The translations under genes were made by a program, and so were the position numbers. Below are positions 710 through 48,607 of a stretch of DNA of 48,607 nt, one piece after another. Source of the DNA: Candidatus Woesearchaeota archaeon. GTDB taxonomy: Archaea > Nanobdellota > Nanobdellia > Woesearchaeales > WJKV01. The stretch spans positions 1 to 48,607 of the forward strand of contig JAHWHE010000027.1 in the NCBI GenBank assembly GCA_019323495.1, written 5' to 3'. Position 1 is the stretch's first letter; each line of letters begins with the position of its first letter. Below the pieces are notes generated by a model. The model made no database searches. It was not told the origin of the DNA and saw only the letters and a program-made list of their open reading frames with translations.

Positions 710-2545
710 ATGGGAAAGATTATACAATTATCAGAGGATCTTATAAACAAGATAGCTGCAGGAGAGGTGATAGAACGGCCTGCTTCTGTAGTTAAAGAAT
801 TGATAGAGAACAGTATAGATGCAGGTGCAAAGAACATCATAATCGAGATAAAGGAAGGCGGCAAGAGCTTTATCAAGATAACAGACGACGGTAGTGGCAT
901 GTCAAAAGAAGATGCCTTGATTTCTATCAAAAAGCACAGCACGTCAAAGATAAAGGATGTAGATGACTTGTTCAATATTGGCAGTCTTGGGTTCAGGGGA
1001 GAGGCTCTTGCGAGCATTGCAGCTGTCAGCAACATGGAGATAATCACAAAGACGCAGTTTGATCTTGAAGGAATCGAGATTGAAATTAGCAATGGAAAGA
1101 TAAAGAATGTCAAGGAAATAGGTGCACCGGTCGGCACGACAATAAAGATTTATGACTTGTTCTTTAATACACCAGCAAGAAAAAAACACCTTGGAGACAT
1201 GAATGTCGAATTAAGGCACATAACAGACATTGTTGTCAAATACGCTCTTGCATATTTTGAGATTGGCTTCAGGCTTGTGCACAACGACAAAGAACTGATA
1301 CTTGCTCCACCGACGCCTGACAAATTAGGAAATATCGTGAATATCTTTGGCAGGGATTTCGCAAAACTGTTGCTGCCTGTTGCAGGAGAGACAGATTTGG
1401 TGAATGTCAGCGGTTACATCGGCAAGCCTGCATTGAACAGGGCAGACAGATCACATATTTTTACGTACGTTAATGGCAGATACATAAAGAACAAGGAATT
1501 ATTGGATGCTGTTGAAAAAGCATACGACCATCTGCTGAATACAGAGAGATATCCTGTTGCAATACTTAATTTTGAACTGCCGTACGAGAGGGTGGATGTC
1601 AATGTGCATCCTACAAAAGCAACAATAAGGATTGAAAAGCAGGAAAGAGTGTGCAGCGATATCGCTGATATTTTGAAAAAGCAATTGGAAAGAGCAAATC
1701 TTGTGCCTAAGATAGAGCCGAGCAAGGTAGTGCAGCAGATACTTGACAAGGAAAAATCAGAACTGCCGAGCACAGACATCAGGCAGATACTGAAGCAGAA
1801 ATCGAATGTCATGCAGACTTTGCAGGAGATCAAGAACAGGCCTATCGACGCGCAGAGGAGCAGGCAGCAGCAATTGCTGGACAAGCAGAAACAGCAGAAG
1901 CAGTTGGACAAGGAAAAGATTGTCGTTGATCCTATCAAGATAGATTACATAGCATACAATGTGCTTGGGAAGATACACAAGACATTCATTCTTGTCGAGA
2001 CGATGGACGGCTTGAGGATTATAGACCAGCACGCTGCGCACGAGCGCATACTGTTCGAGAACATCATGGAAAAGTTCGAGAGCAAGCAAAAGATAAAGAA
2101 GCAGACATTGCTGAATCCGATACAGGTGAATGTTCTTCCCAATGACGCATTATTGATAAAAGACAGCTTGGAGAAATTAGACAAGTTTGGCTTTACTGTC
2201 GAAGAATTCGGCAACAACACATTCATAATAAGGACATTGCCGGCCATCCTGGGAAAACAGCAGACAGAAGATTTTTTCCACGAGATAATCGCAGAACTAA
2301 AAGAGAACCAATATAAAAAAATAAAAGGGATAACAGAAGAAAGATTCGCGCGCATGGCGTGCAGAAAAGCTGTCAAGGCAGGAGATGTCCTGGAAAACAT
2401 GCAGATGGAGCAGCTGGTGAAGAGATTATTGGAATGCAGGCAGCCTCATACCTGCCCGCACGGAAGGCCTACTATGATAGACTTCACAATAACAGACCTG
2501 GAAAAAAGTTTTAATCGAATAAGAGGTTTTGAGACAAATGCGTGA
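710..2545 (+). CDS. mutL: DNA mismatch repair protein MutL (endonuclease-type)
   Basis: N-terminal GHKL ATPase signature (IAAGEVIERPASVVKELIENSIDAGA, DDGSGM). C-terminal endonuclease motif DQHAAHERILFE, plus ACRKAVKAGD and CPHGRP. AGGGGGA SD lies 5 nt before the ATG. Confidence 0.95.
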   Translation: MGKIIQLSEDLINKIAAGEVIERPASVVKELIENSIDAGAKNIIIEIKEGGKSFIKITDDGSGMSKEDALISIKKHSTSKIKDVDDLFNIGSLGFRGEALASIAAVSNMEIITKTQFDLEGIEIEISNGKIKNVKEIGAPVGTTIKIYDLFFNTPARKKHLGDMNVELRHITDIVVKYALAYFEIGFRLVHNDKELILAPPTPDKLGNIVNIFGRDFAKLLLPVAGETDLVNVSGYIGKPALNRADRSHIFTYVNGRYIKNKELLDAVEKAYDHLLNTERYPVAILNFELPYERVDVNVHPTKATIRIEKQERVCSDIADILKKQLERANLVPKIEPSKVVQQILDKEKSELPSTDIRQILKQKSNVMQTLQEIKNRPIDAQRSRQQQLLDKQKQQKQLDKEKIVVDPIKIDYIAYNVLGKIHKTFILVETMDGLRIIDQHAAHERILFENIMEKFESKQKIKKQTLLNPIQVNVLPNDALLIKDSLEKLDKFGFTVEEFGNNTFIIRTLPAILGKQQTEDFFHEIIAELKENQYKKIKGITEERFARMACRKAVKAGDVLENMQMEQLVKRLLECRQPHTCPHGRPTMIDFTITDLEKSFNRIRGFETNA

Positions 2546-3212
2546 GCTGCAAGAAGTGTGGAGGCAAGTAGATGACTGTGAATTCTGCAGGCAGAGCAAT
2601 AACAGATTGCAGCACATCCTTGGAGGAGGGAAAGAGCAACAGCCGGACGTGATGTTTTGTTTTATCAATCCTACCTATAGGAACATAACAACAGAACCTG
2701 ACTATAGGGGCCAGAGATTTCCATTCATGGGAACAACAAAAGTATGGAAGGTCTTTGTCAATGCAGGCTTGCTCGAGCAGGATGTGATGGCGAGGATTAA
2801 AAAAGGATGGGACCAAGATTTAATAGACAGCACAATAAAAAAGATAGAAGAAAAAAATTTCTACTTCACAAACCTTGTCAAATGCGCACAGCCGCACGCA
2901 GACAATCCAAAGACAGCAGAGATAAGAAAACTCTTGCCTTTGTTCTTTAAGGAATTGTCCGTTGTGCAGCCAAAGTTGATCTGCAGTTTCGGCAGCCTGC
3001 CTTTCAGATGGCTGACAAACATCAATAGTTTGAAATTATCAGAGCACTATGAAAAGCAGAAGCGATCAAATAAATTGATAACTTATGATTCAGTCCCTAT
3101 CAACGGAAAAAAGTATAGTGTATTTCCTTGCTATTTTCCTGTCGGCAGGGGTAATCCTAAAAAAGCAGTCGAATTGCTGCAGATATTGAAAAAAATAAAC
3201 CTGGAGGCATGA
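2538..3212 (+). CDS. Uracil-DNA glycosylase superfamily protein (family 4/5-like, divergent motifs)
   Basis: Layout follows the family 4 UDG order: CEFC near the N-terminus, GGG..PDVMFCFINPT, FPFMGTTKVW, FYFTNLVKC, CSFGSLP, YFPVGRGNP. ATG 2538 overlaps the mutL stop (ATGCGTGA), and the stop overlaps the mutS ATG. The track start at 2529 is TTG. Confidence 0.7.
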   Translation: MRELQEVWRQVDDCEFCRQSNNRLQHILGGGKEQQPDVMFCFINPTYRNITTEPDYRGQRFPFMGTTKVWKVFVNAGLLEQDVMARIKKGWDQDLIDSTIKKIEEKNFYFTNLVKCAQPHADNPKTAEIRKLLPLFFKELSVVQPKLICSFGSLPFRWLTNINSLKLSEHYEKQKRSNKLITYDSVPINGKKYSVFPCYFPVGRGNPKKAVELLQILKKINLEA

Positions 3213-5761
3213 TGGAAGAGCGTCTTACACCTGCAATGCATCAGTACAAGGAAGCAAAAGCGCAGTATCCGGACTGCATTATCTTTTTGAGGCTGGGTGA
3301 TTTTTATGAGATGTTCTATGAAGATGCAAAGATCGCATCAAAAGTACTGGATATCACATTGACAAAAAGGGCAGGCGTTCCGCTGGCAGGCGTGCCGTGG
3401 CATGCATTAGATCCTAATCTAGCAAAAATGATTGAGAAAGGCTACAAGGTGGCTATCTCAGAGCAGATGGAGGATCCAAAGACAGTCAAGGGCAGGGTCG
3501 TAAAAAGAGAAGTGGTTAGGATAGTGACGCCTGGTACTGTGATTGCGCCGAGTTTATTAGACGAGAAAAGCAACAATTTCTTGATGTCGATTCATTTTGC
3601 AGAAAATCAGCCTGGCAATGGGAAAAAGTTTGGTGTTGCATTGGCAGATGTCAGCACTGGCGAGTTTCTGACAACAGAATTGGACAGCGATGATAAATTA
3701 TTGAATGAGATTGTTCGTTTCGATCCAAAGGAGATAATTGTCAGCAATGCAGTTGGATTCGATACGGAGAAGTTTGTGAACGGCAGGCAGAATCTCTTTG
3801 TCTCTGCGTATGATGATTATCATTTTTCTTTCAGTTCTGCGTACAAGGAGCTGATCAGGCATTTTGATGTCATGAATCTTGAATGTTTTGGCATGGAGCA
3901 GAAAGAAAATGCGATAATTGCGGCAGGCGCCTTGCTTGCTTATCTGAACGAGACCCAGAAAGGAAGCACAAAACAGATCACAAGACTGAGGCAGTTTGTC
4001 ACAGAAGACTACATGATTTTGGACAGCAGCACAATAAGGAATCTCGAGCTGATGAAAAACATAAGAGACGGGACAAGAAGAGGAAGTTTATTGGACGCGA
4101 TCGACAAGACAGTGACTCCAATGGGAAGCAGGCTGTTGAGGCAATGGATACAGCAGCCGTTATTGGATGTCAACCTGATCAACGCGCGCTTAAACGCTGT
4201 CGAAGAGTTGACAACAAAGACCCTCGTCAGGGAAGAAATCAAGGCGTTGTTGAATAATGTCTATGATGTGGAAAGACTGATCACAAGAATAAGCAGCAAC
4301 AGCGCGAACCCGAAAGACCTGATTGCATTAAAGGACAGCCTCAAGATTCTTCCGTCTATAAAAGAACAGTTGAATGACACAAACTGCATGCTTTTGAAGG
4401 ATTTCAAGCTTCTTCCTGAACTCCCTGAATTAAGGGATTTGATTGAAAACGCGATTAAAGACAATCCTAACACAAAAACAAAAGAAGGAAACATCATCAG
4501 GAAAGGTTACAATCAGCAGTTAGATGAATTGCACCAGATAGCTTTCGGAGGGAAGAACTGGATAGCGCAATTAGAAGCAAAAGAAAGGGAGGCAACAGGC
4601 ATTTCTACCTTAAAGATAGGTTTCAATCGGGTCCATGGCTATTACATCGACATAACAAGAAGATTCAGCGACAAAGTTCCTTCTACATACATAAGAAGGC
4701 AGACATTGGCGAACAGCGAGCGATATGTGACAGAAGAATTGAAGCAGAAAGAAGAGCAGGTGCTTGGTGCAGAAGAAAAGATCAATACATTGGAATTTGA
4801 ACTGTTCATGCAGATCCTGGAAAGATGCACAGAGAAGATAATCGACATACAATTAATTGCGCAAAGCATCGCGCTTCTAGACGTCACTATTTCTTTAGCG
4901 ACAGTCGCAGTTAATAATCGTTATACAAAACCATCAATAACAACCAATTATGAATTAGACATAGAAGACGGAAGGCACGCAGTAATCGAAAGCATCCAGT
5001 TAGAGCCTTATGTCCCCAATCACACAAAGATGAACAAGGACAACAGGTTGTTCATTATCACAGGCCCTAACATGAGCGGCAAATCCAGCTTCATGAGGCA
5101 GGTTGCTTTGATACAGTTATTGGCGCAGATTGGAAGCTTTGTGCCAGCAAAAAAAGCAGTTGTCGGCATTGCTGACAGGATCTTTACTAGGGTCGGTGCT
5201 TATGACGACCTGACAATGGGCCAGTCCACTTTCATGGTCGAGATGACAGAGACAGCAAACATTCTGAACAATGCGACTGAAAAATCCTTGGTTATTTTGG
5301 ATGAGATTGGTCGCGGCACTAGTACTTTCGACGGCATCAGCATTGCATGGGCTGTCGCAGAATACATCTACCAGAACATTGGTTCCAAGACATTGTTTGC
5401 AACGCACTATCATCAGTTGAATAAATTGGCAGAACGCTTCAAGTCTGTCAAGAACTTCAATATTGCTGTCAAGGAAAAAGCAGACGACATAATATTCTTG
5501 AGGAAGATCTTGGAAGGGGGGACCGACAAGAGCTATGGTATCCAGGTTGCAAAACTCGCAGGTCTGCCGGCAGAGGTCATCGAAAGAAGCAAGAAGATAA
5601 TGAATCAGCTCGAGATGGATGACGAGATTGCAGAAAAAATCCATGCGCCTTTGAAAAAAGAAGAGCCTGAGATTGGAAAGAAGATCGAGCAGGTTGAGCA
5701 AAAGGAACAGGCAGAAAAGCAGGAAGAGACCAATGCCAAATTGAACCACTTTTTTGGGTAA
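3209..5761 (+). CDS. mutS: DNA mismatch repair protein MutS
   Basis: N-terminal TPAMHQY..GDFYEMFYEDA mismatch-binding signature, Walker A GPNMSGKSS, DEIGRGTSTFDG, ATHYH. The start is ATG 3209 or 3212, after GGAGG. Confidence 0.95.
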   Translation: MMEERLTPAMHQYKEAKAQYPDCIIFLRLGDFYEMFYEDAKIASKVLDITLTKRAGVPLAGVPWHALDPNLAKMIEKGYKVAISEQMEDPKTVKGRVVKREVVRIVTPGTVIAPSLLDEKSNNFLMSIHFAENQPGNGKKFGVALADVSTGEFLTTELDSDDKLLNEIVRFDPKEIIVSNAVGFDTEKFVNGRQNLFVSAYDDYHFSFSSAYKELIRHFDVMNLECFGMEQKENAIIAAGALLAYLNETQKGSTKQITRLRQFVTEDYMILDSSTIRNLELMKNIRDGTRRGSLLDAIDKTVTPMGSRLLRQWIQQPLLDVNLINARLNAVEELTTKTLVREEIKALLNNVYDVERLITRISSNSANPKDLIALKDSLKILPSIKEQLNDTNCMLLKDFKLLPELPELRDLIENAIKDNPNTKTKEGNIIRKGYNQQLDELHQIAFGGKNWIAQLEAKEREATGISTLKIGFNRVHGYYIDITRRFSDKVPSTYIRRQTLANSERYVTEELKQKEEQVLGAEEKINTLEFELFMQILERCTEKIIDIQLIAQSIALLDVTISLATVAVNNRYTKPSITTNYELDIEDGRHAVIESIQLEPYVPNHTKMNKDNRLFIITGPNMSGKSSFMRQVALIQLLAQIGSFVPAKKAVVGIADRIFTRVGAYDDLTMGQSTFMVEMTETANILNNATEKSLVILDEIGRGTSTFDGISIAWAVAEYIYQNIGSKTLFATHYHQLNKLAERFKSVKNFNIAVKEKADDIIFLRKILEGGTDKSYGIQVAKLAGLPAEVIERSKKIMNQLEMDDEIAEKIHAPLKKEEPEIGKKIEQVEQKEQAEKQEETNAKLNHFFG

Positions 5762-9710: not shown

Positions 9711-10760
9711 TTAATGATTTCCTTCGCATCTACCTACTGTGACTTTCTTCACAATCCATTTGCAAGGATATCCGTGCGGGCATGTTCCTCCGCAAAGTTC
9801 TCCTGTTGTTTGGCATCCTTTTTCTCTTATTCCCAAGTCAAATGGTTCTGCGAATGATCCTGCAGGTCCTGCCTGCTGTTCAGTACCGTCTGCATCTTCT
9901 GGATGCTCTCCTGCACAGATTATAGAATCTACATAATCGTATGTTTTCCATACGCATTCTAATCCGTGGGTGCAAGTTCCGCTGCAGTCTGCTTCTGTCG
10001 ACCCGACACATCCTTCTTCAGGCTTAGGTACGACTCCAAGATCAAAAGGATCAGTAGGATCTCCTATCTCAAAGACAGAGTTTAGATAAACCTCTCCTGA
10101 CACAAGATCCAAGAGTTCGTATTCTGTTGCAGCAGTAATCGTTTCTGCAGGTGCTGTGCTTACAATTCCTGTTGCTGGTGCAATCGTGGTTTCTGTACCT
10201 GTTTCAGGTATTGTTTCATCCACAGGTTCTGTTGATTCAACGATTTCTGTTGCAGGCGCTCCAGGTTCTTCAGGGAATACTTCAACCATTTTAACATTGA
10301 TGTCATCTAGAACCCATTTGTAGCCATTGCAGTCGAATGTTCTTGGGACAGATCCCGGATTACAATAATATGCAATATACCACAGCTTGCCGGATTGTTT
10401 AGGGCTGAAACTAAAGATCCCTTCTGCATTGCCAGCAATCCAATTGTTATTCTCTTGGTATGCATCTCCACTCAGATCGATTGGTTTCCATGAACTGGTT
10501 TCTACATCATACCAGTAGCCCAAGTGCCAGATGTATCTTCCAGCAACAGTATATCTGACTGTGGCGCTTTCTCCTGCTGCAAGCTCCACATCTTTAGGAG
10601 TAGTCAATACTAGATCATTTGTAAATGCATAGGCTTCTGCATATTCTCCTGCTTGTCCGATTGGTCCGCCTGGCGAGCCTGGCTCTGCAGGAAGAAGACT
10701 TGCGCATGATGTCAGCATAGCAAGCGCACATAAAAGAACTAAAACATACATTAGCTTCAT
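9711..10760 (-). CDS. Secreted lipoprotein with a duplicated Cys-rich C-terminal module
   Basis: Signal peptide with lipobox LTSC and a Thr/Glu/Pro linker. Two copies of PFDLG..GC....C.GTC.HG..C.W follow. GGTGA SD lies before the ATG. Confidence 0.7.
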   Translation of the reverse strand: MKLMYVLVLLCALAMLTSCASLLPAEPGSPGGPIGQAGEYAEAYAFTNDLVLTTPKDVELAAGESATVRYTVAGRYIWHLGYWYDVETSSWKPIDLSGDAYQENNNWIAGNAEGIFSFSPKQSGKLWYIAYYCNPGSVPRTFDCNGYKWVLDDINVKMVEVFPEEPGAPATEIVESTEPVDETIPETGTETTIAPATGIVSTAPAETITAATEYELLDLVSGEVYLNSVFEIGDPTDPFDLGVVPKPEEGCVGSTEADCSGTCTHGLECVWKTYDYVDSIICAGEHPEDADGTEQQAGPAGSFAEPFDLGIREKGCQTTGELCGGTCPHGYPCKWIVKKVTVGRCEGNH

Positions 10761-41859: not shown

Positions 41860-43443
41860 CTAATAATCAGGTTCGTCTTCTTCCTTGAATAGCTCTGGAT
41901 TCTGTTTTTCAATATCCTCATCAAGAAGCTCGTCGACAAAACTCTTTGTTTTCTGGACCTTGTATTTCTTCCGCCGTTTCTTTGGCTTCTCTGGCGTCTT
42001 TATTTTTTCAATCACAACTTCTGGTTCTTTTTGTTTCAGTTCAGGTTTTGCTTCTTCTTTAGAAATAGTTTCAGCAGGCTTTTCTTCTGCTGGCTTTGCT
42101 GTTTTTTTCTGTTTCTTTGGTGCGGCCTTTTTCTGCTTTTTTGGCTTGCTTTCCTTAGGCGCTTTCGCAGCCTTTTTCTCTTTTGCTGAATCAGGCTTTT
42201 TTTCTTCTACTGGAGGCGCTTTTTCTTGCGTTTTTTCTGCTTTCTCTTCTGTTTGTTCTTTTTTTTCCTCTGGAGTTTCTGCTTCGATTTTTTTTTTTGA
42301 TTCTGATTTTTTCTTGGATTTCTTCTCTTTTGTCTCGTCCCTTTTTCCCCTGAACAGGATTATCAAGATGATAAATATGATGATGACGACAATGATTACT
42401 TTGACAGGGCTCCTTTTAGCCCCTTCTTCTTGGTCAGGTGCGACTTCTTTTTCCTTTTCTTCAGGCTCTATGATGGGTTCAGTGGTAGTGCTCCTGCTGA
42501 CAATCACAACATCTTTTGGCTTGTCTCCGATAGAAATGAAATCCTTTTCATTATTCTTTATGTCGATAAGCTCAAGCCCTTCTTCTTTTACAACAATGAG
42601 TGCGCCGTCTGCAAAATCCATGCCAAACGCTTCGCCATCTAAAGGAATGGTCAATGTAACTTCGTTCTTGGTAAGATCTATGACTTGTATTGCAGAAGAA
42701 TCTTCATCTCCGTTCGCGCTGAGCAATGCCAGCCTGTTTCCCACAATGAGTTCATTATTGATATTTGTGTTCATGGTGTCCAGGTTGTCTGGCAGGAACC
42801 TGTTCTTCTCCATATCCAGCTTTATTATCTTGTTGTATTTCGTGTCGACAATGTATGCGATTTTTCCGTCCGAAGAAATCGCAATGTCTCCCGGACTGGT
42901 CAAAATAGTGGGATCTTTGATAGTATCTATTACTCTTTTTGTTTCCCTGTCAATAACATCTATAGAGCTGTCTGCCAGATTTGTGATATAAGCTCTTTCG
43001 TTTGTAAATGCAATGCCGATAGGAACTTCGCCGACTTCTATTGTTTTGTTCCCTACCAAATTTACTAGATCAATGACATGAATCTTGTTCGATTGGCTGC
43101 TGGCAACGTATGCTTCAAGGCCGTCAGGCGTAATCTGTACTCCGATTGGTTCGTCTGCAACCTTGATCTTTTTTATCTGTTTTAGATTTTCTATATCTAT
43201 TATAGAAATGCTGCCTTCTTTTGTATTTGTCACGACCGCGAGTTTCTTGTCAGGCGTTATCGAGATTTTGTTAGGTCCTTCCCCTACCTTTATCTTTTTT
43301 GTTTCCCCGCTGTATATATCAAGATGGCTGACGCTGTTGTCTGCGAATCTTGTAACCAATACCTCTACTGCAGAAGCAGAAGCTATTAATGACATGGTGA
43401 AAATAAGCATAATTGCAATTAATATTAGTAATTTGTTCCTCAT
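41860..43443 (-). CDS. Surface YVTN-type beta-propeller repeat protein with a TM anchor and a long Lys/Glu-rich cytoplasmic tail
   Basis: Signal peptide and repeated blocks (GP..I.ITPD...AYV.N....SI.VID). TM segment VKVIIVVIIIFIILIILF, then a 163-aa K/E/P-rich tail. GGAGGT SD. Confidence 0.8.
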   Translation of the reverse strand: MRNKLLILIAIMLIFTMSLIASASAVEVLVTRFADNSVSHLDIYSGETKKIKVGEGPNKISITPDKKLAVVTNTKEGSISIIDIENLKQIKKIKVADEPIGVQITPDGLEAYVASSQSNKIHVIDLVNLVGNKTIEVGEVPIGIAFTNERAYITNLADSSIDVIDRETKRVIDTIKDPTILTSPGDIAISSDGKIAYIVDTKYNKIIKLDMEKNRFLPDNLDTMNTNINNELIVGNRLALLSANGDEDSSAIQVIDLTKNEVTLTIPLDGEAFGMDFADGALIVVKEEGLELIDIKNNEKDFISIGDKPKDVVIVSRSTTTEPIIEPEEKEKEVAPDQEEGAKRSPVKVIIVVIIIFIILIILFRGKRDETKEKKSKKKSESKKKIEAETPEEKKEQTEEKAEKTQEKAPPVEEKKPDSAKEKKAAKAPKESKPKKQKKAAPKKQKKTAKPAEEKPAETISKEEAKPELKQKEPEVVIEKIKTPEKPKKRRKKYKVQKTKSFVDELLDEDIEKQNPELFKEEDEPDY

Positions 43444-44300: not shown

Positions 44301-44822
44301 ATGGCAATTACAAAGAAAATAGCAACAATTGGGATAAAGAGGGAGCCTGGTTTTCTGTATTTTATTGACAAGAATGGGAATGTCTGTTGCACTCTCGCTA
44401 AAAAGTTCAAGTCCCAGAAAGAAAAAGGCATCGATATTGTTGCAAATGCAAAGATAAGCAAAAAACAAGGCTGCATGTACTATGTTGATAAGGACGGGGA
44501 TGTGTGCGAAGTACAGATGAGCAGGAACGGCGCAAAGAAAAAGAAAAGAACAGAGAAAGCAAAGGCAGACATAAAATACATAGTGTATGAGCAGAACGGA
44601 AAGATGCGCCTGTTCAGGTCAAAGAAACTATTTCTCGCAGAGAACGGGCGAAACTTTGAAATCAGCGAGCCAGTGATAGAAAACAAACAGTACGGTGTCT
44701 GGCTGACATACGAGGCAAAAAGATCTACACGCTATAAGAAAACAAAGAAGTTCGTGAAATTAGCAAAACCTGCGAAGAATATCCGGTTGGTTAACAAAAT
44801 TCCTAAGAAGTACAGTTATTGA
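44301..44822 (+). CDS. Hypothetical basic protein with a duplicated N-terminal motif
   Basis: GFLYFIDKNGNVC and GCMYYVDKDGDVC repeats, followed by a Lys-rich region. No family recognised. Confidence 0.65.
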   Translation: MAITKKIATIGIKREPGFLYFIDKNGNVCCTLAKKFKSQKEKGIDIVANAKISKKQGCMYYVDKDGDVCEVQMSRNGAKKKKRTEKAKADIKYIVYEQNGKMRLFRSKKLFLAENGRNFEISEPVIENKQYGVWLTYEAKRSTRYKKTKKFVKLAKPAKNIRLVNKIPKKYSY

Positions 44823-45438: not shown

Positions 45439-45516
45439 CTAAAATCTTGCGCCGACTAATGTTATGGCTACAAAGATTAAAAATACTGCTATTGCGAAGA
45501 AGGTTTTCATTTTCAT
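45439..45516 (-). CDS. Candidate 25-aa hydrophobic micro-protein (not in the ORF track)
   Basis: The minus strand reads GGTGaattctATG and encodes MKMKTFFAIAVFLIFVAITLVGARF, then TAG. The SD overlaps the stop of the upstream acidic-protein gene. Confidence 0.35.
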   Translation of the reverse strand: MKMKTFFAIAVFLIFVAITLVGARF

Positions 45517-45521
45517 AGAAT

Positions 45522-46499
45522 TCACCTTAGGTCATTGCATTTGTTTCGTAGGGTTCTTAATTCGTCTCTCAAATCTTCAAGTCTTTTTTCAGCTTCGTCT
45601 AGGTCGTCCTGCGCATCGTCAACATCTTCAAGCGCTCTTTCCACTCTTAATTGCGCCCTGTCAATGTCTGTCTGCGTTCCGTTTATCCTGTAGTCTGCGA
45701 GTGTTGCTTCTGCTGCGCTCAGGCTGTCTTTTTCCCTCTGCAGGTCTTCCTGCGCATCGTCCTCATCTTCCTCTGCGTCATTTATGTCTTCGTCAAGCGA
45801 TTTGATCTGTATATCACAGATCTCTTTGTTTAGATTGGAATATCCTATTGTTTTTGAGGCATACAGCTCTTTCAGTTGCTGGCACCTGTCTTTTAATTTC
45901 CGTAGATTGTCTTTTGCATCATTTGTCGCGTCTTCTGCATCGTCAAGCTCATCTTCTGCATCTTCTGCATCTGTCTCAGCATTCCTGAGCCTGTCATTCA
46001 GTCTGTTGAGCTCTTCCTGCGTTGCATTGATAGCAGCGTCTATCTCGATTTTGATGGCATCAACCGCATCTTCTTCCCTTCCAAGTTTTCGTTCTGCGCT
46101 TTTCTCGTCTCTTTTTGCATCGTCAAGCTCATCTTCTGCAGATTGTATCATCGAATCGCAGTTCTCTACTGTCAAGCCTTCAAAATCAGATCCTAATGAG
46201 GAGTAATCTATAACAGTCTCTTCTTGTTCTTGCACTGGTTCTTCTTTTTCTTCTTCAACAGGAGCGTACAACTTCTCTAGTTCAGCAATAATCTGTTTTT
46301 CCAGTTTCTCGCTGTTCTGCTGCATCTCAAGCAGTTCTTGCTGAAACTGGTTGTCTTTTGGGGATTCCAGCTCTACAAAGCTGTCAAGATCAATGCTTGT
46401 TCGAGAATATTGTGCAACAAAAACAACAGCAATAACTGCCGCAGCTAGAATAACTATAGCAACTATGCCGAATATCAATTTTTGGTTATTATCAGTCAC
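45522..46499 (-). CDS. TM-anchored hyper-acidic coiled-coil protein with two Cys-bounded hairpin modules (paralog B)
   Basis: GTG start after GGGGGAG and an N-terminal TM segment. Four Cys delimit modules of 93 and 94 residues, with NAT and NGT at the midpoints. No family recognised. Confidence 0.8.
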   Translation of the reverse strand: MTDNNQKLIFGIVAIVILAAAVIAVVFVAQYSRTSIDLDSFVELESPKDNQFQQELLEMQQNSEKLEKQIIAELEKLYAPVEEEKEEPVQEQEETVIDYSSLGSDFEGLTVENCDSMIQSAEDELDDAKRDEKSAERKLGREEDAVDAIKIEIDAAINATQEELNRLNDRLRNAETDAEDAEDELDDAEDATNDAKDNLRKLKDRCQQLKELYASKTIGYSNLNKEICDIQIKSLDEDINDAEEDEDDAQEDLQREKDSLSAAEATLADYRINGTQTDIDRAQLRVERALEDVDDAQDDLDEAEKRLEDLRDELRTLRNKCNDLR

Positions 46500-46533
46500 T
46501 CTGCTCCCCCAAAATTAAGAAAAAAAAAGGAAA

Positions 46534-47601
46534 TTAATAAAGTCCGCTGCACTGCTGCTTGATTCTTCTAAGTTCTCTCTTAGCAACATCTACTGCGTCT
46601 TTTGCGTCGTCTTCGTCATCTTCTGCATCGTCTAGATCGTCTTCTGCGTCATCCAGGTCGTCTTCTGCATCGTCAATTGCGTCCTGTAGGTAATCAAGTT
46701 CAGATTGTGTAGCGTTTCTTGCCTGAGCTGCTGTATACGCAGCCTGCGCGGCAGTCAAATCATTTCGAGCTTCCTGAACATCATCTTTTTCATCGTCCAC
46801 ATCGTCTCCTGCATCATCTTCTGCGTCTTCTGCAGCGTCAACTGCATCTTCAGCAGCAGATATTGCAGCTGGGCATGTGTTCTTGTTCAGGTTCGAAAAG
46901 TCAACTGTTCCGCCGCTGTAAGCGGCTTTATTAGCGCATCTTCTTTTGATTTCCCTTTCTATGCGCTTAGCATCATCTTCATCGTCTTCTGCATCGTCAA
47001 CATCATCTTCTGCATCATCAACGTCATCTTCTGCATCGTCTACATCATCTTCTGCATCATCGATATTGTCCTGCAGCCTGTCTAGTTCAGATTGGGTTGC
47101 ATTGTTTAGTCTTGCAGTTGCCAATGCAGCTTCTGCCTGAGCTAGTTTGTCTCTTGCTTCTGTCAAATCTCTTTTCTCATCGCTCAGGTCATCCTTTGCG
47201 TCGTCTACATCATCTTCTGCATCATCTACTGCGTCTTCTGCAGCCGCTATAGCTGCGTCGCAGTTTGAAAGATCTTCTAATAGACCGTAATTATCAGTTG
47301 GCTGCTCTGTTTGCTCAGGTTGTTCAGCTTCCTGCTGTTCCTTAGCTTTTTCTTCTGCAGCTTTCTTTGCTGCGTCCAGCTTTATCTGCTCCAGCTGAGC
47401 TTTAAGAGCATCTTCCCGTGCCTGCAGTTCTGCCATTGCCTGCTGTCTTGCAAGCTCTTCAGCACTAGGTGTCTCGTCAATCAACTCGTCTTCTATCTCG
47501 CTCTGGTTCGCTAAAACGAAATATACTGCAACTGCTGCAGCTACCAGAACTACAATTATAACAATCGCCAATATTAGCTTTGTCTTCTTGTCTTTTTCCA
47601 T
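46534..47601 (-). CDS. TM-anchored hyper-acidic coiled-coil protein with two Cys-bounded hairpin modules (paralog A)
   Basis: ATG after GGGGGT and an N-terminal TM segment. Four Cys delimit two modules of 109 residues, each with NAT at residues 54-56. DDAEDDV heptad repeats. Confidence 0.8.
   Translation of the reverse strand: MEKDKKTKLILAIVIIVVLVAAAVAVYFVLANQSEIEDELIDETPSAEELARQQAMAELQAREDALKAQLEQIKLDAAKKAAEEKAKEQQEAEQPEQTEQPTDNYGLLEDLSNCDAAIAAAEDAVDDAEDDVDDAKDDLSDEKRDLTEARDKLAQAEAALATARLNNATQSELDRLQDNIDDAEDDVDDAEDDVDDAEDDVDDAEDDEDDAKRIEREIKRRCANKAAYSGGTVDFSNLNKNTCPAAISAAEDAVDAAEDAEDDAGDDVDDEKDDVQEARNDLTAAQAAYTAAQARNATQSELDYLQDAIDDAEDDLDDAEDDLDDAEDDEDDAKDAVDVAKRELRRIKQQCSGLY
46606..46668 (-). 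repeat. In-frame 21-bp tandem repeat, 3 units, encoding AEDD(L/E)DD heptads
   Basis: The units at 46606-46626, 46627-46647 and 46648-46668 share the gtcttctgc core. Confidence 0.8.
46981..47064 (-). repeat. In-frame 21-bp tandem repeat, 4 units, encoding DDAEDDV heptads
   Basis: The units are atcgtcttctgcatcgtcaac, atcatcttctgcatcatcaac, gtcatcttctgcatcgtctac and atcatcttctgcatcatcgat. Confidence 0.85.
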
Positions 47602-47721
47602 CTTAATAAACCCCCAAAAGCATTATCACTCTTGATTTTCACCCTATTTTAGGGCTATAAATTCCTGCTATTATTTAAATGTTACTATTTTCAAAGAGTG
47701 AATTTATTGCCTTACAGTACA

Positions 47722-47747: not shown

Positions 47748-47785
47748 TTTTAGCCTACAGATGTGATGCTAATATTTTATATAAT

Positions 47786-47793
47786 TTTATATA
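47786..47793 (+). promoter_or_regulatory. Archaeal TATA box for the leaderless Zn-ribbon gene
   Basis: TTTATATA is centred about 27 nt upstream of ATG 47817. Confidence 0.5.
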
Positions 47794-47816
47794 TAAAGAC
47801 TGCTATTCTATTTGCC

Positions 47817-47996
47817 ATGAAAATGCCAGAAAAATCGAAAAGACAAGCTAGGAAAACCGCAACAATAATTAGGCGGTGTCCTGTCTGCAAGTCAACAGAT
47901 GTGATGTTCTACATGGGCGGCCAGTTCGGACAGTACAAATGCAAGAATTGCGGCTATGTGGGTGCCTTGGTTATAGAAGAAGAGATTGAGGACTGA
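47817..47996 (+). CDS. Small zinc-ribbon protein
   Basis: MKMPEKSKRQARK..CPVC...17 residues...CKNC (Cys4). The track start at 47763 is a GTG inside the promoter. Confidence 0.6.
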   Translation: MKMPEKSKRQARKTATIIRRCPVCKSTDVMFYMGGQFGQYKCKNCGYVGALVIEEEIED

Positions 47997-48073: not shown

Positions 48074-48607
48074 ATGTTAAAATCAGAGGTGAGAAAACAA
48101 TTAGTAATTCTTCTAGTAGTATTCATAGTCCTTTTTTTCAGCGCGATTTTCTTGATAGGCCATGAAAACCTGGGCATTACAGGCCTGGCAGTCACAGGCA
48201 CTCATTCAGTCGCAGTCAACAAGCAGTTTTCATCTAATTCATTTTTAGATTTGCAGTTATCAACAATCCCGAGTTCCATCAGCATTTCTGGCGCAGTCCA
48301 AGGTCAAGGAACAATAAAAGTTTATGCAAACGACGGCCAGTCACGTTCTTTAATTTTTGATAAGCAGGTCCTCAACCTACCTACGCAACTTACTGAAGAC
48401 GAATTGTTGGATCTCCAGCAATTCTCTTCGACCTGCTTAGATTCTTGTTCTCATGCTTTCGCAACAAATAACATCCGTCTTGAGATAGAAATCCAGGACG
48501 CAACACTCTTCATCGAAGACGTAATCTACAGCGAGTTCGCACAACAGCCGCAGCAACCTTTGCAGCTGCCAGAACCAGTTCCAGAACCAGAACCGCAGCC
48601 TGCACCA
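48074..48607 (+). CDS. TM-anchored surface protein, N-terminal part; the 3' end runs off the window
   Basis: ATG 48074 follows GAGG. N-terminal TM segment, then an ITGLAV motif. The frame stays open to the last base and ends in QQPQQPLQLPEPVPEPEPQPAP on a complete codon. Confidence 0.7.
   Translation, partial: MLKSEVRKQLVILLVVFIVLFFSAIFLIGHENLGITGLAVTGTHSVAVNKQFSSNSFLDLQLSTIPSSISISGAVQGQGTIKVYANDGQSRSLIFDKQVLNLPTQLTEDELLDLQQFSSTCLDSCSHAFATNNIRLEIEIQDATLFIEDVIYSEFAQQPQQPLQLPEPVPEPEPQPAP

What the first reader, a model, noticed from the sequence alone, without database searches (positions are those of the whole stretch)
45522..47601. Tandem paralogs of a hyper-acidic, Cys-clasped helical-hairpin surface protein with a glycosylation sequon at each module midpoint
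Both proteins (355 and 325 aa) share one architecture. Each has an N-terminal TM anchor, a coiled-coil stalk, and two modules that begin and end with a Cys. These four Cys are the only ones in each protein. By my residue count the modules are 109 and 109 residues in the 355-aa protein (46534..47601), and 93 and 94 in the 325-aa protein (45522..46499). Each module carries an N-x-T sequon (NAT, NAT, NAT, NGT) at its midpoint; in the 109-residue modules it sits at residues 54-56. The arms are heptad-periodic and dominated by Asp, Glu and Ala (DDAEDDV repeats). The inter-module linker (Y)S..T..(F/Y)SNLNK..C and the GGGGG-containing leaders are conserved between the paralogs. This geometry suggests antiparallel helical hairpins closed by a disulfide, with an N-glycan at the tip, forming a dense polyanionic surface. 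I recognise no named family. Possible roles (cation capture, envelope or host-contact structure) are speculation.
Basis: partly seen in the sequence, partly recalled or inferred. Interest (0 to 1): 0.75.

Follow-up and report, generated by a model that had tools for sequence, protein, structure and literature searches.

The report
Acidic Cys-clasped hairpin envelope protein pair
Two adjacent genes of a Woesearchaeota (DPANN) archaeon encode membrane-anchored, extremely acidic surface proteins built from long helical hairpins, each probably pinned shut by a cysteine pair. They belong to a small lineage-specific family that no database describes, and their function is still only inferred.

Summary
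Two minus-strand genes, A (46534..47601, 355 aa) and B (45522..46499, 325 aa), each encode an N-terminal anchor and exactly four Cys. The Cys bound two modules of 109/109 and 93/94 residues, each with N-x-T at its midpoint. D+E is 32% and 28%, against 10.7±4% for the window's other proteins.

AlphaFold2 models each module confidently as one antiparallel helical hairpin that turns at the N-x-T.

About 38 relatives exist. All that carry a name are Woesearchaeota/Nanoarchaeia. They have 1, 2 or 3 Cys-to-Cys modules. Only one has an extra ectodomain Cys. The two arm lengths co-vary (r=0.72). Two homologs use a lipobox anchor, which places the domain outside the cell.

The tip sequon is present in 47 of 63 modules, far above chance, but is not universal: one subfamily has G-D/N at the tip instead.

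A and B are an old two-gene cassette found in five genomes, with matched module number (2+2 or 3+3). dN/dS is 0.07–0.12.

No Pfam, NCBIfam, PDB or viral family fits; all hits are generic coiled coils.

Best reading: disulfide-stapled, probably tip-glycosylated polyanionic rods on the cell surface that bind cations. The structure is well supported. The disulfide, the glycan and the function are inferred.

The parts
46534..47601 (-). Gene A (355 aa): the hyper-acidic 'A-type' two-module hairpin protein
   Evidence: ORF. Composition and Cys positions. AF2 model. Orthologs in L013, L001, L011 and L022. dN/dS 0.074.
45522..46499 (-). Gene B (325 aa, GTG start): the 'B-type' two-module hairpin protein. 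It starts 35 nt after the stop codon of A.
   Evidence: AF2 model of the ectodomain with pLDDT 87.3. Orthologs P0001, P0002, P0004 and the L013 copy. dN/dS 0.117.
47509..47577 (-). A residues 9-31: N-terminal signal-anchor TM helix. A Lys-rich N-terminus precedes it and an acidic flank follows it, giving N-in/C-out topology.
   Evidence: Hydrophobic run. AF2 helix 3-31. The positive-inside reading is inference.
47329..47463 (-). A residues 47-91: charged E/K/Q/A-rich helical spacer. A disordered Q/P/T linker (residues 92-109) follows it.
   Evidence: AF2 helix 47-91 with pLDDT 73-79, and residues 90-109 below 50. No heptad signal.
46936..47262 (-). A module 1 (Cys114..Cys222, 109 aa): helical hairpin with net charge -33
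   Evidence: AF2 helices H114-165 and H170-229.
47095..47103 (-). A module 1 tip, N167-A-T169
   Evidence: Non-helical residues 166-169 in the AF2 model. Codons aat gca acc read.
46876..46935 (-). A inter-module linker (residues 223-242, ..AAYSGGTVDFSNLNKNT)
   Evidence: pLDDT dips at residues 229-234.
46549..46875 (-). A module 2 (Cys243..Cys351, 109 aa): helical hairpin with net charge -32. The tip N296-A-T298 lies at 46708..46716.
   Evidence: AF2 helices H243-294 and H299-352.
45882..46160 (-). B module 1 (Cys114..Cys206, 93 aa). The tip N158-A-T160 lies at 46020..46028.
   Evidence: AF2 helices H4-48 and H54-110 of the ectodomain model, which correspond to B residues 111-155 and 161-217.
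45537..45818 (-). B module 2 (Cys228..Cys321, 94 aa). The tip N273-G-T275 lies at 45675..45683.
   Evidence: AF2 helices H118-166 and H169-217 of the ectodomain model.
46980..47058 (-). 21-nt (one heptad, DDAEDDV) tandem repeat, 3.8 copies, in the C-arm of A module 1. A second array lies at 46596..46674 in module 2.
   Evidence: Tandem Repeats Finder. The repeat length is conserved without indels in A-type orthologs.
47611..47615 (-). GGGGG ribosome-binding-like motif 9 nt upstream of the ATG of A. B has the same motif at 46506..46510, 6 nt upstream of its GTG.
   Evidence: The motif also precedes other genes in the window (710, 26720) and in related genomes, so it is generic.
45439..45516 (-). 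25-aa hydrophobic mini-ORF (MKMKTFFAIAVFLIFVAITLVGARF). It starts 5 nt after the stop codon of B and has an AGGTGA Shine-Dalgarno motif. It may be a third, small membrane component of the operon.
   Evidence: It is conserved in frame in L013 with 4 of 25 substitutions. It is absent in L001 and L011.

Best explanation
A and B are the two members of a conserved gene cassette in Woesearchaeota (DPANN archaea). It encodes membrane-tethered, extracellular, rod-like proteins.

**Predicted build of each protein**
- An N-terminal signal-anchor holds the protein in the membrane. Some relatives use a lipobox lipid anchor instead.
- A charged helical spacer and a flexible linker follow.
- Next come two (elsewhere one or three) helical hairpins about 7-8 nm long.
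- The hairpin arms pack through an Ala/Val/Leu heptad seam.
- The open, membrane-proximal end of each hairpin is pinned by one Cys at the first turn of helix 1 and one Cys near the end of helix 2. These most likely form an intramodule disulfide.
- The distal tip is a 3-4-residue turn, N-x-T/S. It serves as a helix cap and very probably also as an N-glycosylation site.
- All solvent-facing heptad positions are Asp or Glu. Each module therefore carries roughly -15 to -33 net charge.

**Proposed function (inferred)**
The rods form a dense polyanionic layer on the cell surface. Such a layer needs, and therefore binds and concentrates, Mg2+/Ca2+ and other counter-ions. Cation binding also screens the repulsion between the two acidic arms, so the hairpins would fold only outside the cell. 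The layer sets surface charge and hydration and may mediate cation-bridged contacts with other surfaces.

A and B probably act together, because their module number and stalk length track each other across genomes.

**Shown:** the sequence anatomy, the predicted hairpin fold, the family-wide Cys pair, the enrichment of the sequon at the tip, the evidence for an extracytoplasmic location, the conservation of the cassette, and purifying selection.

**Inferred:** the disulfide, the glycan, cation binding, A-B co-assembly and the physiological role.
For: **Anatomy.**

**Fold.** AF2 on full-length A gives pLDDT 80.7, with hairpin arms mostly above 90 and turns at residues 166-169 and 295-298. AF2 on the B ectodomain gives pLDDT 87.3, with turns at the NAT and NGT motifs.

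**Family.**
- 133 profile hits.
- Of these, about 38 non-redundant proteins have an anchor plus 1, 2 or 3 Cys-Cys modules of 93-97 or 104-110 residues.
- Only one has an extra ectodomain Cys.
- Arm lengths correlate at r=0.72.
- The first Cys is preceded by N/T/S and followed by D/P, which is a helix N-cap box.

**Tip sequon.** It is present in 47 of 63 modules, at -0.9±1.3 residues from the midpoint. In the 69-module count, 53 modules have it against 3.3 expected by shuffling, and only 2 sequons lie elsewhere in the modules. Thr outnumbers Ser 38 to 9. AglB is reported for the DPANN superphylum (PMC8993221).

**Outside the cell.**
- Lipobox-anchored homologs occur in L015 (LLFIFAGC) and L022 (LLTAC).
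- Basic N-termini and acidic post-TM flanks are seen across the family.

**Cassette.** An A-type plus B-type pair occurs in the window, L013, L011, L001 and L022. The module number is matched at 2+2 four times and 3+3 once. The TM-to-first-Cys distances for A/B are 105/106, 105/109, 102/103 and 112/115.

**Selection.** dN/dS is 0.074 and 0.117. The A-type modules keep their exact length across orthologs of 40-60% identity.

**Acidity is specific to these proteins.** The window's other ORFs have median pI 9.0.
Against: - No experiment or structure exists for any member.
- The Cys-Cys distance in the models could not be read.
- Both arms of each hairpin are acidic and show no general charge complementarity. 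Only the last ~10 residues of the C-arm are basic. An isolated hairpin is therefore electrostatically strained, and AF2 may over-predict it.
- A quarter of modules, including a whole Woesearchaeota subfamily, lack the sequon.
- N-x-T can be explained by helix capping alone.
- No oligosaccharyltransferase, thiol oxidase or cation-related partner is linked to the cassette. The recurring neighbours (nitroreductase, YVTN beta-propeller protein, small M50 peptidase, a basic 173-aa protein) give no functional clue and may reflect shared ancestry only.
- A-B co-assembly rests on five genomes.
Confidence: 0.5

Rival explanations
1. The tip N-x-T/S is purely structural and is not glycosylated. Asn takes the left-handed C-cap position that ends helix 1, and Thr/Ser is the N-cap of helix 2, often followed by a capping-box Glu (T-Q-S-E).
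For: A sister subfamily from the same phylum has [S/A]-G-[D/N] at the same place. Gly is the other classic C-cap residue, and Asp/Asn are the other classic N-cap residues. AF2 puts the helix break exactly on these residues. Helix-capping preferences are established knowledge.
Against: When Asn is used, the third residue is almost always Thr or Ser (47 modules), and Asp appears only once (P0026, N-S-D). Thr is preferred 38 to 9, as oligosaccharyltransferases prefer. Sequons are almost absent from the rest of the modules (2 in total). The site is at the most exposed point of an extracellular rod. The two roles are not mutually exclusive.
Confidence: 0.3
2. The Cys pairs do not clasp their own hairpin. 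Instead they form intermolecular disulfides (A-B or homo-oligomer cross-links at the hairpin bases), or they jointly bind a metal ion.
For: All four Cys of a two-module protein would lie at the same membrane-proximal end. A and B have their first Cys at the same distance from the membrane. The module number is matched between the partners.
Against: Single-module members have exactly two Cys, and three-module members have six, so the unit is a pair per module. The two Cys of a module are equidistant from the turn and lie on the hydrophobic seam. Two thiolates alone are a poor metal site.
Confidence: 0.2
3. The rods are a specific attachment device rather than a generic cation-binding coat. They would dock the small DPANN cell onto a host cell or a mineral surface, directly or through cation bridges.
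For: The family is confined to Woesearchaeota/Nanoarchaeia. Many members of this group are thought to live attached to other cells (general knowledge). The rods are extended, tip-decorated and membrane-anchored.
Against: The surface is a repetitive Asp/Glu array with no variable or recognisably specific binding site. The orthologs are under strong purifying selection and show none of the diversification typical of host-contact proteins. No adhesion domain is present.
Confidence: 0.2
4. They are cytoplasmic, membrane-tethered coiled-coil scaffolds of the EzrA or SMC-like kind. The Cys would be reduced and the sequons irrelevant.
For: The best Pfam hit for both proteins is EzrA (E 4e-4 and 8e-4). 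NCBIfam gives weak SMC and ASRP hits.
Against: - All these hits are far below the curated cut-offs (19 against 39.6 bits; 27-33 against 300-567 bits).
- The charge distribution around the TM is the opposite of EzrA's (EzrA topology recalled from general knowledge).
- Two homologs have lipobox signals.
- Pro/Thr-rich linkers follow the anchor in relatives.
- Conserved Cys pairs and tip sequons make no sense in the cytoplasm.
Confidence: 0.05
5. The acidic repeats are drifting low-complexity sequence with no specific function.
For: 21-nt tandem repeats are present. The two modules of A-type proteins resemble each other more than their orthologs do, which suggests intragenic homogenisation.
Against: dN/dS is 0.07-0.12 with dS about 1.2. 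Module lengths are identical in orthologs of 40-60% identity. Module lengths fall into discrete classes, and the arms co-vary.
Confidence: 0.03

Closest known systems
Alpha-helical hairpin of periplasmic adaptor / membrane-fusion proteins (AcrA, MacA, HlyD, TMexC)
   Same: An extracytoplasmic antiparallel coiled-coil hairpin on a protein tethered to the cytoplasmic membrane by an N-terminal TM or a lipobox. Two HlyD-like proteins (P0006, P0007) cross-hit through an acidic DDAxDD hairpin. Foldseek superposes 71 columns on TMexC (9j3d_D) at 1.9 Å.
   Different: The hairpin is not flanked by lipoyl, beta-barrel or membrane-proximal domains, and there is no HlyD Pfam hit. The hairpins are longer and arranged in tandem, have a Cys at each end, and are far more acidic. 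Archaea have no outer-membrane channel to dock onto.
CHCH-domain (twin Cx9C) proteins of the mitochondrial intermembrane space
   Same: The same principle: a helix-turn-helix hairpin stapled by disulfides between the two helices in an oxidising compartment (general knowledge).
   Different: CHCH hairpins have about 10-residue Cys spacing, two disulfides and about 15-residue helices. Here one Cys pair lies 92-112 residues apart and closes a hairpin with roughly 45-to-60-residue helices. There is no sequence similarity.
SEC10/PrgA surface-exclusion proteins of Gram-positive conjugative plasmids (TIGR04320)
   Same: A surface protein with a long antiparallel helical stalk (the stalk description is from general knowledge). 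It is the best NCBIfam hit for both A and B (E 3e-10 and 1.7e-9).
   Different: The scores of 40 and 37.5 bits fall below the 70-bit cut-off. Other family members do not hit the model. hhalign against PrgA of pCF10 gives 0.4% probability. There is no LPXTG anchor.
Wall teichoic acids, calsequestrin-type polyanions and acidic haloarchaeal S-layer glycoproteins (functional analogues only)
   Same: Dense arrays of negative charge at or near a membrane that bind divalent cations with low affinity and high capacity and set the surface charge (general knowledge).
   Different: There is no homology. Here the polyanion is an ordered helical protein rod. The host proteome is basic rather than halophile-like.
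EzrA / SMC-type membrane-tethered or long coiled-coil scaffolds
   Same: An N-terminal TM followed by repeated antiparallel helical segments. These give weak profile hits.
   Different: All hits are below threshold. The predicted topology is the opposite. There are no ATPase heads, and these families have neither Cys pairs nor sequons.

Membership tests
Unnamed Woesearchaeota 'Cys-clasped acidic hairpin' family (defined here) | N-terminal membrane anchor (signal-anchor TM or lipobox) | tested here: met
   A residues 9-31 and B residues 8-30. All 38 family proteins passed the hydrophobic N-terminal filter used to define the set, so this is part of the definition. Two homologs have a lipobox.
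Unnamed Woesearchaeota 'Cys-clasped acidic hairpin' family (defined here) | 1-3 modules bounded by a Cys pair 88-114 residues apart, with no other ectodomain Cys | tested here: met
   A has modules of 109/109 residues and B of 93/94, with four Cys each. Across the family, 63 modules were counted, and 1 of 40 proteins has an extra Cys.
Unnamed Woesearchaeota 'Cys-clasped acidic hairpin' family (defined here) | Each module is one antiparallel helical hairpin with heptad arms of matched length | tested here: met
   AF2 models. Periodicity z up to 12. Arm-length correlation r=0.72.
Unnamed Woesearchaeota 'Cys-clasped acidic hairpin' family (defined here) | Significant profile similarity to other members | tested here: met
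   P0001 at 1e-29 to A. Profile hits from 1e-122 to 1e-10.
Archaeal N-glycoprotein | N-x-S/T sequon on an extracytoplasmic, exposed segment | tested here: met
   Sequons lie at the hairpin tips and are enriched family-wide.
Archaeal N-glycoprotein | Oligosaccharyltransferase AglB encoded by the organism | not tested
   No AglB-like ORF was found among the annotated window genes. The rest of the genome is not available. AglB is reported for the DPANN superphylum in general (PMC8993221).
Archaeal N-glycoprotein | Glycan attached to the Asn | not testable with these tools
   This needs glycoproteomics.
Disulfide-stapled helical hairpin | The two Cys of a module are within bonding distance and oxidised | not testable with these tools
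   Model coordinates are not exposed. The symmetry about the turn and the seam positions are consistent with a disulfide.
SEC10/PrgA surface exclusion domain (TIGR04320) | Score at or above the curated cut-off (70 bits), and homology to PrgA | tested here: not met
   40.0 and 37.5 bits. hhalign against PrgA gives 0.4% probability. P0004, P0011 and P0026 give no hit.
EzrA (PF06160) | Score at or above the gathering threshold (39.6 bits), and a cytoplasmic C-terminal domain | tested here: not met
   19.1 and 18.3 bits. The topology evidence points outside the cell.
PspA/IM30/ESCRT-III (PF04012) | Score at or above the gathering threshold (33.9 bits) | tested here: not met
   19.0 bits for B only. 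No PspA or ESCRT-III structure appears among the Foldseek hits.
Membrane-fusion / periplasmic adaptor proteins (HlyD family) | Hairpin inserted between lipoyl and beta-barrel domains | tested here: not met
   No HlyD, biotin-lipoyl-like or beta-barrel Pfam domains. The models are all-helical.
SMC / archaea-specific SMC-related protein (NF045487, TIGR02168/9) | Score at or above the cut-off, and ABC ATPase head domains | tested here: not met
   20-33 bits against cut-offs of 300-729 bits. The proteins are only 325-355 aa long and have no globular domain.
CHCH (twin Cx9C) domain | Two Cx9C motifs on facing helices | tested here: not met
   The Cys spacings are 92-108 and 21-22 residues.

The most novel reading that the evidence does not exclude
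A and B co-assemble, module against module, into a palisade of disulfide-locked, glycan-capped polyanionic rods. The rods would fold only once exported into Mg2+/Ca2+-containing surroundings. Together they would form a protein counterpart of teichoic acids: a previously unrecognised kind of archaeal envelope layer that stores cations and provides the cation-bridged contact surface through which these ultra-small Woesearchaeota interact with hosts or minerals.
Probability: 0.12. Interest if true: 0.75.

Novelty: new variant of a known kind. Interest (0 to 1): 0.45.

Why it matters
Woesearchaeota and other DPANN archaea are abundant and largely uncultured, and almost nothing is known about their cell envelopes.

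This cassette is a conserved, lineage-specific and probably abundant surface component. Its design is simple and testable: an anchor, a spacer, Cys-pinned acidic helical hairpins, and a sequon at each tip.

If the inferred properties hold, the finding would give:
- a handle on how these tiny cells manage surface charge, cations and contacts;
- a natural example of very long disulfide-stapled alpha-hairpins with extreme charge, of interest for protein design;
- a marker family for the lineage.

As it stands, it is a well-delimited new domain family of unknown function, not a new mechanism.

Tried and rejected
1. **PrgA/Sec10 lead.** The top NCBIfam hit was TIGR04320. I fetched prgA from pCF10. 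hhalign gave 0.4% probability, and several family members do not hit the model. Rejected.
2. **EzrA, PspA, Laminin_II, FliJ, SMC, Rad50 and tape-measure/spanin hits**. All are far below cut-offs and are generic coiled-coil resemblance.
3. **Foldseek on the full model and on the ectodomain.** Against PDB, nothing scored below E=0.06; the hits were F-BAR domains, axonemal filaments and TolC. Against BFVD, only tape-measure helices appeared.
4. **PDB sequence searches** returned only tropomyosin and keratin.
5. **tblastn against plasmids** and a **scan of viral contigs** found no relatives, so nothing suggests a mobile or viral origin.
7. **Sequon versus lineage.** I tested whether sequon-less modules belong to organisms without N-glycosylation. 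They do not: that subfamily is also Woesearchaeota.
8. **Charge complementarity between hairpin arms** is not present, except at the basic base of the C-arm.
9. **Bacterial promoter/terminator scan** is uninformative for an archaeon.
10. **Rfam and tRNA scans** of the window found nothing.
11. **Literature searches** for such a family in Woesearchaeota/DPANN found no description.


Full report
**1. What is in the sequence**

Gene A is at 46534..47601 (minus strand, ATG, 355 aa). Gene B is at 45522..46499 (minus strand, GTG, 325 aa). B starts 35 nt after the stop codon of A.

- Each protein has exactly four Cys: A at 114/222/243/351 and B at 114/206/228/321. These bound modules of 109/109 and 93/94 residues.
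- Each module has one N-x-T at its centre. In A these are NAT167 and NAT296, at module positions 54-56. In B they are NAT158 and NGT273, at module positions 45-47 and 46-48.
- A also has an NQS at residue 32, just after the membrane anchor.
- D+E is 31.8% in A and 28.3% in B, with net charges of -77 and -53. The other 40 ORFs of the window average 10.7±4.0% D+E (maximum 18.4%) and have a median pI of 9.0. The acidity is therefore a property of these two proteins and not of the proteome.
- The DDAEDDV repeats correspond to 21-nt tandem repeats.
- The 3.5-residue hydrophobic periodicity is very strong in all four C-terminal arms (z 9-12). It is weaker in the N-terminal arms (z 1.3-6).
- The 'GGGGG leaders' are DNA motifs 6-9 nt upstream of both start codons. 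The same motif precedes unrelated genes here and in related genomes, so it is the ordinary ribosome-binding motif of the lineage.

**2. Fold**

AlphaFold2 was run on full-length A with a 7-sequence alignment. It gives mean pLDDT 80.7 and the following elements:
- a TM helix, residues 3-31;
- a helix, residues 47-91;
- a disordered linker;
- two helix-turn-helix units, H114-165/H170-229 and H243-294/H299-352. Most of the arms score above 90, and the breaks fall exactly on N-N-A-T and R-N-A-T.

A second model covers the B ectodomain. It gives pLDDT 87.3 with the same picture and breaks at the NAT and NGT motifs.

The first Cys opens helix 1. Across the family it is preceded by N/T/S and followed by D/P, which is a typical helix N-cap box. 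The second Cys lies on the hydrophobic strip of helix 2, at the same distance from the turn. This geometry suits a disulfide that closes the open end of each hairpin.

I could not measure the Cys-Cys distance, because model coordinates are not exposed.

Both arms are acidic. Only the last ~10 residues of the C-arm are basic, and these face the acidic start of the N-arm. The hairpin would therefore need counter-ions to be stable.

**3. Relatives**

A word-indexed search found only five true relatives. One is annotated 'Nanoarchaeota archaeon'.

An exhaustive profile search found 133 hits. Filtering for an N-terminal anchor plus acidic Cys-to-Cys spans leaves 38 non-redundant proteins with 63 modules.

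- The 40-protein set, which included two near-duplicates, has 16 one-module, 19 two-module and 5 three-module proteins.
- Module lengths cluster at 93-97 and 104-110 residues.
- Only one protein has an additional ectodomain Cys.
- The N-arm and C-arm lengths co-vary (r=0.72).
- Every member that carries a name is Woesearchaeota, Nanoarchaeota or Nanoarchaeia.
- The closest genome hit is 'Candidatus Woesearchaeota archaeon Bin_486' (locus L013). It has the same gene order, and its A and B are 84% and 77% identical to the window's.
- Two homologs replace the TM with a lipobox signal: LLFIFAGC in L015 and LLTAC in L022. This is independent evidence that the hairpin domain is outside the cytoplasmic membrane.
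- The basic N-termini, the acidic post-TM flanks and the Pro/Thr-rich linkers of other members agree with that placement.

**4. The sequon**

In the 69-module count, 53 modules have N-x-S/T within six residues of the midpoint. Shuffling predicts 3.3, and only two sequons occur anywhere else in the modules.

In the non-redundant set the figure is 47 of 63. The sequon sits -0.9±1.3 residues from the midpoint, and Thr outnumbers Ser 38 to 9.

The sequon is not universal, however. Sixteen modules lack it. These include a single-module subfamily whose tip reads [S/A]-G-[D/N], and that subfamily is also from Woesearchaeota.

Asn and Gly are the classic helix C-cap residues, and Thr/Ser/Asp/Asn are the classic N-caps. 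The tip motif therefore has a structural reading that needs no glycan. The near-exclusive use of Thr/Ser after Asn, and the bias toward Thr, argue that the sequon as such is selected.

AglB is reported for the DPANN superphylum (PMC8993221). I could not check this genome.

My conclusion is that glycosylation at the tip is likely but unproven, and it is not a defining feature of the family.

**5. The two genes are an old cassette**

A-type and B-type proteins are distinct orthologous groups. An A-type gene sits immediately upstream of a B-type gene in the window, in L013, in L011 and in L022. In L001 the two are separated by a 2.8-kb insertion of small genes.

- The partners have the same number of modules: 2+2 in four genomes and 3+3 in L022. 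There the A-type protein reaches a net charge of -117.
- The distance from the TM to the first Cys tracks between partners while differing between genomes: 105/106, 105/109, 102/103 and 112/115.
- A-type modules keep their exact length across orthologs of 40-60% identity.
- Within one A-type protein the two modules are more alike (63-75% identity) than the modules of a B-type protein (23-41%). This suggests intragenic homogenisation.
- dN/dS against L013 is 0.074 for A and 0.117 for B, at dS about 1.2.

These facts exclude drifting low-complexity sequence. They suggest that A and B work side by side, but they do not prove it.

**6. Context**

The window is an ordinary chromosomal stretch. It encodes MutL-UDG-MutS, the CCA-adding enzyme, two 2-oxoacid:ferredoxin oxidoreductase sets, FBP aldolase, and CorA, MscS, Na/Ca and Na/H transporters.

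The genes that recur near the cassette are a nitroreductase, a YVTN beta-propeller membrane protein, a basic 173-aa protein and, in other genomes, a small M50 peptidase next to CTP synthase. None gives a functional clue, and they may simply reflect shared ancestry.

A 25-codon hydrophobic ORF follows B and is conserved in L013.

**7. Comparison with known families**

- No Pfam or NCBIfam model reaches its cut-off.
- The PHROG hits are tape-measure and spanin coiled coils.
- PDB sequence searches return tropomyosin and keratin.
- Foldseek finds nothing better than E=0.06 in PDB. In BFVD it finds only tape-measure helices.
- The most persistent hit was the SEC10/PrgA surface-exclusion domain. 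It fails the cut-off, fails for other family members, and fails hhalign against PrgA itself.

The nearest working analogies are the alpha-hairpin of periplasmic adaptor proteins, which is an extracytoplasmic, membrane-tethered antiparallel coiled coil, and the disulfide-stapled CHCH hairpins. Neither is a family match.

**8. Mechanism I commit to**

These are membrane-tethered extracellular rods whose hairpins are locked by a basal disulfide and capped by a tip turn that usually carries a glycan. Their Asp/Glu-covered surfaces make a polyanionic layer that binds divalent cations, which in turn stabilise the fold. The layer sets surface charge and hydration and possibly mediates cation-bridged contacts.

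| Claim | My confidence |
|---|---|
| Structural description | ~0.75 |
| Intramodule disulfide | ~0.6 |
| Tip glycosylation | ~0.55 |
| Cation-binding coat as the main role | ~0.3 |
| A-B co-assembly | ~0.4 |

**9. Verdict**

It is a new, lineage-restricted domain family built on known structural principles. It is not a new kind of system.

Interest is moderate. The anatomy is clean and testable, and it concerns a poorly known cell envelope, but there is no functional evidence.

Noticed in passing
window 45439..45516 (-): A 25-codon hydrophobic mini-ORF (MKMKTFFAIAVFLIFVAITLVGARF) starts 5 nt after the stop codon of B and has an AGGTGA Shine-Dalgarno motif. It is conserved in frame in the related Woesearchaeota contig L013 (4 of 25 changes) and is absent in L001 and L011. 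It may be a small membrane subunit or a leader-like peptide.
   Followed up: partly
window 44301..44822 (+): A 173-aa very basic protein (pI 10, 25% K+R) carries a duplicated G-[FY]-[LM]-Y-[FY]-x-D-x-x-G-x-V motif. It is kept next to the cassette in L013, L001 and L011. It has no Pfam, NCBIfam or PHROG hit.
   Followed up: partly
window 41860..43443 (-): This gene encodes a signal peptide, YVTN/YncE-type beta-propeller repeats, one TM, and then a Lys/Glu/Pro-rich tail of about 170 residues that is presumably cytoplasmic. The propeller gene is syntenic with the cassette in several genomes (L001, L009).
   Followed up: partly
window 46534..47601 (-), and L001:6086-7144, L011:93-1169: In A-type proteins the two modules of one protein are 63-75% identical, in some cases more than orthologous modules are to each other. 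In B-type proteins the two modules are only 23-41% identical. This suggests concerted evolution or gene conversion within the A gene.
   Followed up: partly
L022:4188-7171: A metagenomic relative has a three-module version of both partners. The A-type protein is 500 aa with net charge -117. The B-type protein is 471 aa and has a lipobox anchor. An FKBP gene lies next to the pair, and an FKBP gene also lies next to the three-module gene in L020.
   Followed up: partly
window 47611..47615, 46506..46510, and upstream of the ORFs at 710 and 26720: A GGGGG motif lies 6-9 nt upstream of the start codons of several unrelated genes, and also in related MAGs. It appears to be the preferred Shine-Dalgarno variant of this lineage.
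   Followed up: partly
window 710..5761 (+): A MutL gene, a UDG-superfamily glycosylase gene and a MutS gene lie in one co-oriented block. They overlap or abut one another. This is a compact mismatch and uracil repair cluster in a small DPANN genome.
   Followed up: no
window 9711..10760 (-): A 349-aa acidic ORF (pI 4.2) with 14 Cys has no Pfam hit at E<=1e-5. It may be another secreted or metal-binding protein.
   Followed up: no
window 47763..47996 (+) and 48074..48607 (+): A small zinc-ribbon protein with a CPxC..CxxC motif is encoded divergently from gene A. After it comes a TM-anchored protein with a Pro/Glu/Gln-rich segment that runs off the end of the window. A zinc-ribbon gene also lies just upstream of the single-module family member in L016.
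   Followed up: no
L007:5378-8939 and L020:3143-7428: In two more distant genomes the hairpin gene follows CTP synthase and a small (192-195 aa) M50-like membrane peptidase. An M50 peptidase also occurs 5.7 kb from the family member in L009. Whether this reflects a functional link or shared ancestry is unknown.
   Followed up: no
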